This document shows positions 45,566-47,824 of a stretch of 64,000 bases of DNA, piece after piece. The first letter of the stretch is position 1; every line of letters begins with the position of its first letter. This DNA is from Escherichia coli. GTDB lineage: Bacteria; Pseudomonadota; Gammaproteobacteria; Enterobacterales; Enterobacteriaceae. A program made the position numbers. The DNA lies in the NCBI RefSeq assembly GCF_048403405.1, contig NZ_CP183129.1, one strand, 5' to 3'.

Positions 45566-47824
45566 ATAAATGAAGTGACTGTCCATCAGAAACAGTAACA
45601 ACTATTTTCACCCGATCGTCCGGGGAAATATTTAAACTCAACTTCGTCAAAGCAATGGGTTGATTAGCAGGCAATGAGAGGGTCTTTTCTTGCTTCGTCT
45701 GACTTTGCCCTGAACTGCCTTCGCGCAGGGACAATATTTGTACTCTGCACAGACAAGATTGAGTAAGAGTGACTTCAGGAATAATGGTGTACATATCCCC
45801 TTGCTGGGTCGTATTAAAGGTTATCTGACTGGAAAGTGCCGCAAGGAGTAATAACGCATTCATATTCTTCTCCCGAAAAAAAACAGGGCTTGCGCCCTGT
45901 TTCTTTAATACAGATGTGTATTAGTACTGATGAGCGGTCGCGTTGTTACCAAAGCCAACCTGAGTGACGTTAACGCTGGAGTTAGATGCAGTCTGGTCAA
46001 CAGCAGCACCGTTACCGCCACCGAACTGTTTAACAGTCATAGTAGAATCTTTACCATTCCACTGATCAAGAGTAGCGCTGTTGCCGAAACCACGCTGAGT
46101 CAGATCGATTGAGCTGTCATCAGAACCTTGGCCAACATCTGCACCGTTACCGCCGCCGTGCTGGGTAATGGTCAGATCAGAGTTACGGGCGTCAGCTTGC
46201 AGAGCAAGTGCAGAGTTACCGCCACCGTACTGGTAAATGTTCAGCTCTGAATTTGGGCCGCTATTATTACCGCCACCACCGTGGTTACCGCCGCCGCCGT
46301 ACTGAGGAACAACACCTGCCAGAGCGCTACCAGAGAATACGATTGCTGCAATTGCTGCTACTTTTAAAAGTTTCATGTAAAACCCCCATCGGATTGATTT
46401 AAAAGTCGAATGGAAATTAACGTTGTGTCACGCGAATAGCCATTTGCGACTGTCTCTGCACTACAATTGCCGTTTTTTGAGTACCATACTGTGTAATATT
46501 TGCTTTATTACCAGAACCTTTCTGGATAATCATCGCAGTATTACCATAAGCACCTTGCGAAATACTGGCATCGTTGGCACTGCCCGCCTGATCAATATAT
46601 GCAAGGTTATAATCTCCTGTCTGGTCAATCTTTGCCCGATTGCTACTACCTTCTTGCGCAACAACCGCCAAAAGTTTTGAGCCTCCCTGCCGTAACTGAG
46701 CACTATTATTAGTCCCAGCTTGACCAATTATGGCTGCCTGATTAAATGAAGACTTACTCAATTCATTTACCGCGAAGTTATATTCTGAATTAGCTAAATC
46801 ATAACCTGCTGCGGCTGCAATCCCAGGCGCACCCAGTATTGTTAACATCATAAATAACAATTTGTTTTTCATGTTGTCACCCTGGACCTGGTCGTACATT
46901 TAAGAAATTAAATCATTTCAACTTGGTTGTTAACGCAACCTGTATTTTGTTAACGCTGCGTTACGATGGAAAGTATGTCTGCGGAAATATTTTTAATAAC
47001 TCACCCGCGCGTCGTATTTTTCTTTTTTTGTTCATACCAAAGTATTAAAACCCACGTAAATACGCTGTTATCTACGCAAAAAAATATTTTGTTTTCTTTT
47101 AAATCTCCGTTTTCCGCAATCAAAAATCACCAGACAGCCATTCTTCTTGCCCGTCGCTGATTGCTGCGATATGTCTTGCGCACAAGCCGTGACAAACCTC
47201 GTCTTTTTGCAGTAAAAAATTGTCCACGGAGGTGTGAAGAAAAAACAACAACGTTTTACATGACGAAAGGACTACACCGAAATATTTTTTATATGCATTA
47301 TTAGTAAGTTAGCACCATTTGTATGATTTTTTAAAATTGTGCAATAAAAACCAAATGTACAACTTTTCTATCATTTCTAAACTTAACAAAACCTTAAGAT
47401 TAACATTTTAATATAACGAGTTACATTTAGTTACATGTTTAACACTTGATTTAAGATTTGTAATGGCTAGATTGAAATCAGATGTAATCCATTAGTTTTA
47501 TATTTTACCCATTTAGGGCTGATTTATTACTACACACAGCAGTGCAACATCTGTCAGTACTTCTGGTGCTTCTATTTTAGAGGCAGCTGTCAGGTGTGCG
47601 ATCAATAAAAAAAGCGGGGTTTCATCATGTTTAATGAAGTCCATAGTATCCATGGTCATACATTATTGTTGATCACTAAACCTTCTTTGCAGGCGACAGC
47701 TCTCTTGCAGCACCTTAAACAATCGCTGGCAATTACAGGAAAATTACATAATATTCAACGTTCTCTGGACGATATATCTTCAGGCTCTATTATTCTTCTG
47801 GATATGATGGAAGCGGATAAAAAG

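What the first reader, a model, noticed from the sequence alone, without database searches (positions are those of the whole stretch)
46873..47626. 754-bp AT-rich divergent curli control region
This is the longest non-coding stretch in the window, between csgB and csgD. It is very AT-rich with phased A/T tracts and an OmpR-like direct repeat gttacatttagttacatgtttaacac. It is the known hub for many transcription factors and sRNA targeting of the csgD leader. Strain-specific point changes here are known to alter curli expression, so exact sequence comparison is worthwhile.
Basis: partly seen in the sequence, partly recalled or inferred. Interest (0 to 1): 0.3.

Follow-up and report, generated by a model that had tools for sequence, protein, structure and literature searches.

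The report
Known curli csgB–csgD control region
This is the well-studied 754-bp switch region between the two curli (biofilm fibre) operons of E. coli. This strain's copy differs from the lab strain K-12 at ten positions that evolution does not conserve, and it carries none of the known "always-on" mutations, so it is ordinary.

Summary
Window 46873-47626 is exactly the 754-bp csgB/csgD intergenic region. It has 34.6% GC against 49.4% for the window and is the longest non-coding gap here. The OmpR direct repeat lies at 47420-47445.

The recognisable elements are all intact and identical to K-12:
- csgD -35, 16-bp spacer and -10
- MlrA palindrome
- CsgD box of the csgBA promoter
- the whole 147-nt csgD leader (Rfam ES056, 119.7 bits)

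All ten lie upstream of the csgD start site, in columns that are unconserved across 72 other Enterobacteriaceae species (permutation p about 3e-5).

Nine are ordinary lineage polymorphisms. The tenth, 47013 T>C, lies 5 nt from the CsgD box and occurs in only 4 of about 5,000 complete E. coli genomes. That column varies freely between genera.

Known promoter-up changes are absent: O157 TAGATT>TAGAAT, Salmonella -44 G>T, spacer insertion, IS insertion.

Verdict: already known, and a predicted wild-type regulated allele.

Side observations:
- The promoter-to-promoter spacing (about 470 bp) is conserved across 18 genera although the central sequence is not.
- An ISEcp1-blaCTX-M unit sits in nearby clsC.

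The parts
46417..46872 (-). csgB coding sequence (151 aa), identical in protein to K-12; left boundary of the region
46873..46891 (-). csgB translation-initiation region (Shine-Dalgarno and spacer), a conserved block
   Evidence: At least 80% conserved across 72 species.
46969..46979 (-). Conserved block containing the inferred csgBA -10 (CATACT, reverse complement of 46972-46977). The assignment is my inference from the sigma-S/sigma-70 consensus and conservation, not mapped here.
   Evidence: Conserved block; alignment.
46997..47007 (-). CsgD box CGGGTGAGTTA of the csgBA promoter
   Evidence: Read from the sequence. It lies inside conserved block 46995-47008 and is identical to K-12. The motif identity comes from my knowledge of the CsgD consensus.
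47013..47013 (.). Lineage-private SNP (C here, T in K-12 and all other Escherichia sampled). It lies 5 nt upstream of the CsgD box in the csgB sense and 141 nt upstream of the csgB ATG.
   Evidence: Found in 4 of 4992 matching complete genomes. The column is T23/G26/C21/A2 across genera.
47053..47310 (.). Central, poorly conserved spacer (38% mean identity to other species) whose length is conserved. It contains 6 of the 10 SNPs relative to K-12 (47118, 47127, 47138, 47237, 47249; 47312 sits just at its edge) and overlaps the published RcdA initial footprint (-308 to -192).
   Evidence: RcdA footprint from PMC3535384.
47333..47367 (+). MlrA palindrome AAAATTGTGCA-N12-TGTACAACTTTT (-147 to -113)
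   Evidence: Read from the sequence. Conserved blocks 47317-47335 and 47356-47366. Identical to K-12. The site identity comes from my knowledge of Ogasawara et al. 2010.
47420..47445 (+). OmpR activating site: direct repeat GTTACATTTA/GTTACATGTT plus TAACAC (-60 to -35)
   Evidence: identical to K-12. The D1 site near -50 is described in PMC13304067.
47446..47473 (+). csgD P1 core promoter: -35 TTGATT (47446-47451), 16-bp spacer, -10 TAGATT (47468-47473)
   Evidence: Read from the sequence. CTAGATTGAAA is invariant in the 11 representative genera shown. The wild-type -10 is compared with the O157 promoter-up TAGAAT (PMC7232329).
47480..47626 (+). csgD 5' untranslated leader (147 nt; the literature gives 148), 100% identical to K-12. 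The first 92 nt match Rfam RF02752 ES056. Conserved block 47531-47566 lies in the second stem-loop of the Rfam ES056 model; placing the OmrA/B target there is my inference.
   Evidence: PMC4676190; PMC3634460.
47627..48277 (+). csgD coding sequence (216 aa; S19P and S110A relative to K-12); right boundary

Best explanation
This is the canonical csgBAC/csgDEFG divergent control region of E. coli, in a natural lineage allele that should behave as wild type, with regulated rather than constitutive curli expression.

Mechanism (established knowledge, not tested here):
- RpoS-dependent transcription of csgD starts near 47480 from a weak promoter with a 16-bp spacer.
- That promoter needs OmpR-P at the GTTACAT repeat, MlrA at the palindrome around -130, and IHF.
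- It is silenced by H-NS (-201 to +28), CpxR and RcsB (-31 to +53).
- The 147-nt leader folds into stem-loops and is bound by OmrA/B, McaS, RprA and GcvB, which block translation or destabilise the mRNA.
- CsgD protein then binds the CGGGTGAGTTA box about 470 bp away and activates csgBA.

Shown here:
- Every one of these cis elements is present and identical to K-12.
- The ten differences from K-12 all lie outside them, in columns that are free to vary across Enterobacteriaceae.
- All csg genes are intact.

Inferred: the allele's regulatory output is therefore like that of typical E. coli.
For: There are 10 substitutions, no indels, and none downstream of intergenic position 527, so the core promoter and the leader are identical to K-12.

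Rfam ES056 matches 47480-47571 at 119.7 bits against a gathering score of 43. ES056 was defined from RNA-seq as starting at the mapped csgD transcription start site (PMC4676190).

Phylogenetic footprint over 72 species:
- Conserved blocks coincide with the CsgD box, the inferred csgB -10, both MlrA half-sites, the OmpR site, the -35 and -10, the leader stem-loop and the Shine-Dalgarno sequence.
- The 10 SNP columns have mean conservation 0.42 against 0.68 overall.
- No SNP column exceeds 0.57; permutation p = 3e-5.

Population context:
- The allele is 100% identical in 4 complete genomes and at least 99% identical in 420 of 5372.
- In a 16-strain panel, 9 of the 10 SNP states are shared with other lineages, and for 47029, 47127 and 47399 the window carries the commoner state. 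At 47029 and 47127 K-12's state is seen only in K-12 and one other strain.

Known promoter-up changes are absent:
- The -10 is TAGATT, not TAGAAT (PMC7232329).
- The G equivalent to Salmonella -44 is retained, at 47437 (PMC11278976; alignment).
- The spacer is 16 bp.
- There is no IS element.

All csg proteins are full length. Literature on the 754-bp hub.
Against: No expression or binding data exist for this allele. Positions -81, -93 and -168 fall inside the published H-NS footprint, and -231 and -243 inside the RcdA initial site, so subtle effects are possible.

A 2026 preprint reports that intergenic polymorphisms cluster with semi-constitutive rdar isolates. It gives no positions in the text, so I could not compare them.

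The csgB transcription start and most footprint coordinates could not be checked in primary papers, which were not held. Curli phenotype also depends on trans factors (rpoS, mlrA, ompR) that lie outside the window.
Confidence: 0.9

Rival explanations
1. The allele is a functional cis-regulatory variant. The clone-private 47013 T>C next to the CsgD box, or the clade-specific changes at -93, -231 and -243, would alter CsgD, H-NS or RcdA binding and so shift curli level or temperature control in this CTX-M-carrying clinical lineage.
For: 47013C is found in only 4 of 4992 complete genomes, while all other Escherichia sampled have T. It lies 5 nt from the CsgD box, between two conserved blocks. Single-base changes in this region can switch curli on (PMC7232329; PMC11278976). 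A preprint links intergenic polymorphisms to rdar variability.
Against: The 47013 column is freely variable between genera (T23, G26, C21, A2). C occurs naturally in Atlantibacter, Kosakonia and Enterobacter in the same GT[C]GTATTTTT context. All ten SNPs avoid conserved columns (p about 3e-5). The proven switch mutations all hit the -10 or the OmpR/-35 zone, which is unchanged here.
Confidence: 0.08
2. The region carries a known curli-constitutive (promoter-up) allele, as in O157:H7 ATCC 43895 or semi-constitutive Salmonella.
For: None found.
Against: The -10 is TAGATT, the spacer is 16 bp, the OmpR site and -35 are identical to K-12, and there is no insertion.
Confidence: 0.01
3. Part of the 'non-coding' region encodes something of its own: a small protein, or a stand-alone sRNA (ES056) rather than only the csgD leader.
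For: Six ORFs of 40-64 aa exist mechanically. Rfam lists ES056 as an sRNA gene, and a 92-nt species was seen by RNA-seq.
Against: The five ORFs checked are not conserved: four are intact in 0 of 72 species and one in 6 of 72. ES056 starts at the csgD transcription start site, has no terminator (PMC4676190) and covers exactly the leader's two stem-loops. This fits a 5' fragment or attenuated product of csgD mRNA.
Confidence: 0.05

Closest known systems
E. coli K-12 MG1655 csgDEFG-csgBAC intergenic region (NC_000913.3 1103197-1103950)
   Same: Same length (754 bp), same flanking genes and orientation, and 744 of 754 identical bases. The OmpR, MlrA and CsgD sites, the core promoter and the 5' leader are identical.
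   Different: Ten substitutions at window 47013, 47029, 47118, 47127, 47138, 47237, 47249, 47312, 47387 and 47399. At 47029 and 47127 K-12's state is seen only in K-12 and one other strain of the 16-strain panel; at 47399 it is the less common of two shared states.
Alleles of strains 4621, MS 69-1, TUM1226 and OX030728, and the wider clade at 99% identity or more (e.g. PCN033, GN02461)
   Same: 100% identical to the first four. It is 1-3 differences from GN02461, TUM14771 and PCN033. The whole 64-kb window is collinear with strain 4621.
   Different: Only the four identical genomes share 47013C. None of the 5426 complete genomes has the clsC::ISEcp1 junction found 3 kb from the csg locus.
Curli promoter-up alleles: O157:H7 ATCC 43895/FB38 (-10 TAGAAT) and Salmonella Typhimurium -44 G>T
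   Same: Same promoter architecture and the same positions can be aligned.
   Different: The window has the wild-type base at each of these positions.
Salmonella/Citrobacter/Enterobacter csgD-csgB intergenic regions
   Same: Same size class (742-802 bp in 72 of 74), the same conserved blocks and the same promoter-to-promoter spacing.
   Different: The perfect GTTACAT direct repeat and the TTGATT -35 are Escherichia coli features. Most other genera shown have TTTACAT...TGTTACA (a few GTTACAT...TGTAACA/TGTTACA), and all but Atlantibacter have TTGCTT. The central 260 bp is unalignable in practice (38% identity).
Rfam RF02752 ES056 sRNA
   Same: Full-length match to models positions 1-92 at 119.7 bits, at 47480-47571.
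   Different: Here it is simply the 5' part of the csgD leader. Its status as an independent sRNA is unproven.

Membership tests
csgBAC/csgDEFG divergent curli control region (E. coli type) | Lies between divergently transcribed csgB and csgD, with complete csgBAC and csgDEFG operons | tested here: met
   ORFs and translations. The annotation of the collinear strain 4621 and of K-12 agrees.
csgBAC/csgDEFG divergent curli control region (E. coli type) | About 754 bp and AT-rich | tested here: met
   754 bp and 34.6% GC. It is 742-802 bp in 72 of 74 related species.
csgBAC/csgDEFG divergent curli control region (E. coli type) | OmpR activating site (tandem GTTACA-type repeats centred near -50) immediately upstream of the csgD -35 | tested here: met
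   At 47420-47445, identical to K-12 and conserved across genera. OmpR binding itself was not tested.
csgBAC/csgDEFG divergent curli control region (E. coli type) | MlrA palindrome around -130 | tested here: met
   AAAATTGTGCA-N12-TGTACAACTTTT at 47333-47367. Both half-sites lie in conserved blocks.
csgBAC/csgDEFG divergent curli control region (E. coli type) | CsgD box upstream of the csgBA promoter | tested here: met
   CGGGTGAGTTA on the minus strand at 46997-47007, within conserved block 46995-47008.
csgBAC/csgDEFG divergent curli control region (E. coli type) | Structured csgD 5' leader of about 148 nt that is the sRNA target | tested here: met
   The leader is 147 nt and 100% identical to K-12. 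It matches Rfam ES056 with two stem-loops. sRNA pairing was not computed here; it rests on the literature.
csgBAC/csgDEFG divergent curli control region (E. coli type) | RpoS-, OmpR-, MlrA- and IHF-dependent, temperature-regulated expression | not testable with these tools
   Needs reporter fusions or a Congo-red assay.
Curli-constitutive (promoter-up) csgD alleles | -10 hexamer changed to TAGAAT (O157:H7 43895 type) | tested here: not met
   The window has TAGATT at 47468-47473 (PMC7232329).
Curli-constitutive (promoter-up) csgD alleles | G>T at the Salmonella -44 equivalent, or a 1-bp insertion making a 17-bp spacer | tested here: not met
   G is retained at 47437 and the spacer 47452-47467 is 16 bp. 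The spacer-insertion allele is recalled from my knowledge of Romling et al. 1998.
Curli-constitutive (promoter-up) csgD alleles | IS element inserted upstream of csgD | tested here: not met
   No indel relative to K-12. Such an IS1 insertion does exist in strain PEC389 (H75).

The most novel reading that the evidence does not exclude
The central 260 bp or so of the region (47053-47310) may act as a length-constrained spacer rather than a sequence-specific element.

Across 18 genera, the distance from the CsgD box of the csgBA promoter to the csgD -10 stays at about 463-477 bp, a genus-level CV of 1.7%. The csgB leader side varies with a CV of 7.6% and the csgD leader with 3.8%. The intervening sequence is only about 38% identical.

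This would mean the two curli promoters are held in one fixed nucleoprotein architecture (H-NS, IHF, OmpR, MlrA and CsgD bridging or looping) that tolerates substitutions but not indels. Such an architecture could underlie the coupled, bimodal switching of csgD and csgBA.
Probability: 0.3. Interest if true: 0.4.

Novelty: already known. Interest (0 to 1): 0.08.

Why it matters
The region is a textbook regulatory hub, and recognising it adds nothing new. The useful result is negative and specific. This clinical, CTX-M-carrying lineage has a curli control region with no known gain-of-function change. Its differences from K-12 are confined to evolutionarily free positions, so any unusual biofilm phenotype of the strain should be sought in trans factors rather than here.

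Two by-products may be reusable. One is the 72-species conservation map, which separates constrained from free positions and can be used to triage intergenic SNPs in other isolates. The other is the observation that promoter-to-promoter spacing is conserved although the sequence between is not.

Tried and rejected
1. An exact search for the 20-mer GTTACATTTAGTTACATGTT in genome contigs returned nothing. The later loci show why: the perfect repeat is specific to E. coli, and E. coli proper did not appear among the species representatives returned.

2. Primary footprinting and TSS papers were not held: Ogasawara 2010 and 2011, Jubelin 2005, Prigent-Combaret 2001, Holmqvist 2010, and the Barnhart & Chapman review. 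As a result, the csgB transcription start and several transcription-factor coordinates rest on secondary sources or on my own knowledge.

3. The generic sigma-70 scan did not find the real csgD promoter. It gave no more hits than shuffles (2 against 3.0 +/- 1.7), so it is uninformative for this weak, activator-dependent promoter.

4. The A-tract-centre periodicity test was not significant. AA/TT periodicity is not conserved across genera, so 'phased tracts' is not a general property of the family.

5. The small-ORF hypothesis was rejected.

6. Recounting gives 5 intervening nt; this is corrected in the notebook.

7. Outlier spacings of 435-443 bp are anchor mis-picks. The sum with the csgB-side distance is constant.

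Full report
**Observation.** Window 46873-47626 is bounded by the csgB start codon (ATG at 46872, minus strand; MKNKLLFMM...) and the csgD start codon (47627, plus strand; MFNEVHSIHG...). It is 754 bp, the same length as the csgD-csgB spacer of K-12 MG1655.

GC content is 34.6% against 49.4% for the window. About 3% of 754-bp windows are even lower, inside an ISEcp1 element and at the dgcT/pgaA boundary.

The window is collinear with E. coli strain 4621 (NZ_CP103479.1): 3 mismatches in 40.7 kb and none in 20.2 kb, apart from one 3,039-bp insertion. In that annotated genome the csg spacer is the largest intergenic gap in the stretch. The next largest are 598, 590 and 572 bp.

The quoted repeat occurs once, at 47420-47445, with GTTACAT at 47420 and 47430.

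'Phased A/T tracts' is only modestly supported:
- AA/TT periodicity peaks at 10.6 bp and is reached by 12 of 1000 dinucleotide-preserving shuffles.
- A test on tract centres is not significant.
- The periodicity is not general across genera.

None of the five mechanical ORFs checked in the spacer is conserved.

**What it is.** Every recognisable element of the curli control region is present.

On the csgB side:
- a conserved translation-initiation block (46873-46891)
- a conserved block holding the likely -10 (CATACT, reverse complement of 46972-46977; my inference)
- the CsgD box CGGGTGAGTTA (reverse complement of 46997-47007)

On the csgD side:
- the MlrA palindrome AAAATTGTGCA-N12-TGTACAACTTTT (47333-47367)
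- the OmpR repeat (47420-47445)
- -35 TTGATT (47446-47451), a 16-bp spacer and -10 TAGATT (47468-47473)

Rfam family ES056 matches 47480-47571 over its full length at 119.7 bits, against a gathering score of 43. ES056 was defined from RNA-seq as a 92-nt species starting at the mapped csgD transcription start site (PMC4676190). This places +1 at 47480 and gives a 147-nt leader; the literature says 148 (PMC3634460).

Published footprints place H-NS at -201 to +28, RcsB at -31 to +53 (PMC12388358) and the initial RcdA site at -308 to -192 (PMC3535384). [quoted passage not shown] It also describes the csgD leader as an sRNA hub for OmrA/B, McaS, RprA and GcvB.

**Comparison with K-12 and the species.** The allele has 10 substitutions and no indels relative to MG1655. 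Listed as window base/K-12 base, with position relative to +1 = 47480:

| Window position | Window / K-12 | Relative to +1 |
|---|---|---|
| 47013 | C / T | -467 |
| 47029 | T / A | -451 |
| 47118 | A / T | -362 |
| 47127 | T / G | -353 |
| 47138 | C / T | -342 |
| 47237 | A / G | -243 |
| 47249 | C / G | -231 |
| 47312 | G / T | -168 |
| 47387 | C / T | -93 |
| 47399 | A / G | -81 |

Everything from -80 through the start codon is identical to K-12, including the OmpR site, the core promoter and the whole leader.

Among 5,426 complete E. coli genomes, four are 100% identical (4621, MS 69-1, TUM1226, OX030728). A further 416 records are at least 99% identical, and most are 95-99%.

A 16-strain panel shows the following:
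- At 47029, 47127 and 47399 the window carries the commoner state. At 47029 and 47127 K-12's state is seen only in K-12 and strain 1919D62.
- 47118A, 47138C, 47237A, 47249C and 47387C are shared with a clade that includes PCN033, GN02461, TUM14771, M7424 and ETEC6333.
- Only 47013C is confined to the window's own small clone.

A 44-bp query centred on 47013 matched exactly in just the same four genomes out of 4,992.

**Known switch mutations.**
- The O157:H7 promoter-up change is AATCT>ATTCT on the csgB-sense strand, that is TAGATT>TAGAAT in the -10 (PMC7232329). The window has TAGATT.
- The Salmonella -44 G>T (PMC11278976) aligns to G47437, which is retained.
- The spacer is 16 bp, and there is no IS element.
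- All seven csg proteins are full length, with 0-3 substitutions relative to K-12.

**Phylogenetic footprint.** Using CsgD as a probe, I fetched 80 species-level loci from genome contigs. I extracted the csgB-csgD spacer from 76 of them and aligned 72 with the window.

Conserved blocks (at least 80%) coincide with the functional elements listed above. The ten SNP columns have mean conservation 0.42 against 0.68 for all columns, and none exceeds 0.57. Of 100,000 random sets of ten positions, 3e-5 are as unconserved.

The private SNP column 47013 is T23/G26/C21/A2 across species. C occurs in the same local context in Atlantibacter, Kosakonia and Enterobacter hormaechei. All other Escherichia species sampled have T, so C is derived but sits in a tolerant position.

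**Mechanism and verdict.** The best explanation (confidence about 0.9) is that this is the ordinary curli control region, in a natural lineage allele with wild-type cis elements.

The main rival (about 0.08) is that 47013C or the clade SNPs inside the H-NS and RcdA footprints tune expression. The conservation data argue against this but cannot exclude it. A 2026 preprint claims that intergenic polymorphisms track semi-constitutive rdar phenotypes.

A known constitutive allele is excluded at the sequence level. An independent coding or sRNA function is unlikely.

Novelty: already known. Interest: low.

**By-product.** The spacer's size is conserved (742-802 bp in 72 of 74 species). More specifically, the distance from the CsgD-box core to the csgD -10 is 463-477 bp in nearly all species, a genus-level CV of 1.7%. 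The two leader-side distances have CVs of 7.6% and 3.8%.

The central 258 bp is only 38% identical to the window, against 69-74% for the flanks. This suggests selection on spacing rather than sequence. It has not been tested against a proper indel model, and the species are not independent.

Noticed in passing
window 40734-43772 (inside clsC/ymdC, about 3 kb from csgC): A 3,039-bp insertion absent from the otherwise identical strain 4621. It carries an IS1380-family transposase (420 aa, ISEcp1-like by my reading), a 291-aa CTX-M family ESBL (group-9/CTX-M-14-like by my reading; allele not determined with tools) and a 5' fragment of an IS5-family (IS903-like) transposase. The BLAST segments overlap by 5 bp, suggesting a 5-bp target duplication. 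The clsC::ISEcp1 junction is in none of the 5,426 complete E. coli genomes.
   Followed up: partly
window 47000-47467; loci L019-L096: The distance between the CsgD box of the csgBA promoter and the csgD -10 is 463-477 bp across 18 genera (CV 1.7%), although the central 260 bp or so is only 38% identical. The two leader-side distances vary more.
   Followed up: partly
window 47185-47212: An island of moderate-to-high conservation (GCCGTGACAAACCTCGTCTTTTTGCAG) in the middle of the otherwise unconserved central spacer, at about -295 to -268 from csgD +1 and within the published RcdA initial footprint. I did not identify which factor it serves.
   Followed up: no
L017 (NZ_CP021202.1, strain Z1002), aligned to window 47419-47428: This clinical isolate lacks exactly one 10-bp unit of the OmpR direct repeat, leaving a single GTTACAT copy. 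It is a natural deletion that would be expected to impair OmpR activation of csgD.
   Followed up: no
hit H75 (NZ_CM168012.1, strain PEC389): An IS1A element is inserted inside the csgB-csgD intergenic region of this pig isolate.
   Followed up: no
window 47420-47451 against L019-L093: The perfect GTTACAT/GTTACAT repeat and the TTGATT -35 are features of E. coli proper. E. albertii and the other genera shown lack the perfect repeat (most have TTTACAT...TGTTACA), and all but Atlantibacter have TTGCTT. CTAGATTGAAA (the -10) is invariant in the 11 representative genera shown.
   Followed up: no
window 47480-47571: Rfam lists the first 92 nt of the csgD leader as a separate 'sRNA' family, ES056 (RF02752). 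It has no terminator and starts at the csgD transcription start site, so it is probably a leader fragment.
   Followed up: partly
window 54348-55101: A second strongly AT-rich stretch (32.6% GC) covering the 5' end of dgcT and the 590-bp dgcT-pgaA intergenic region, another biofilm-related control region.
   Followed up: no
window 47627-48277 and 45921-46376: CsgD differs from K-12 at S19P and S110A, and CsgA at T61A, N110D and E112T. I did not examine whether these are lineage-typical.
   Followed up: no
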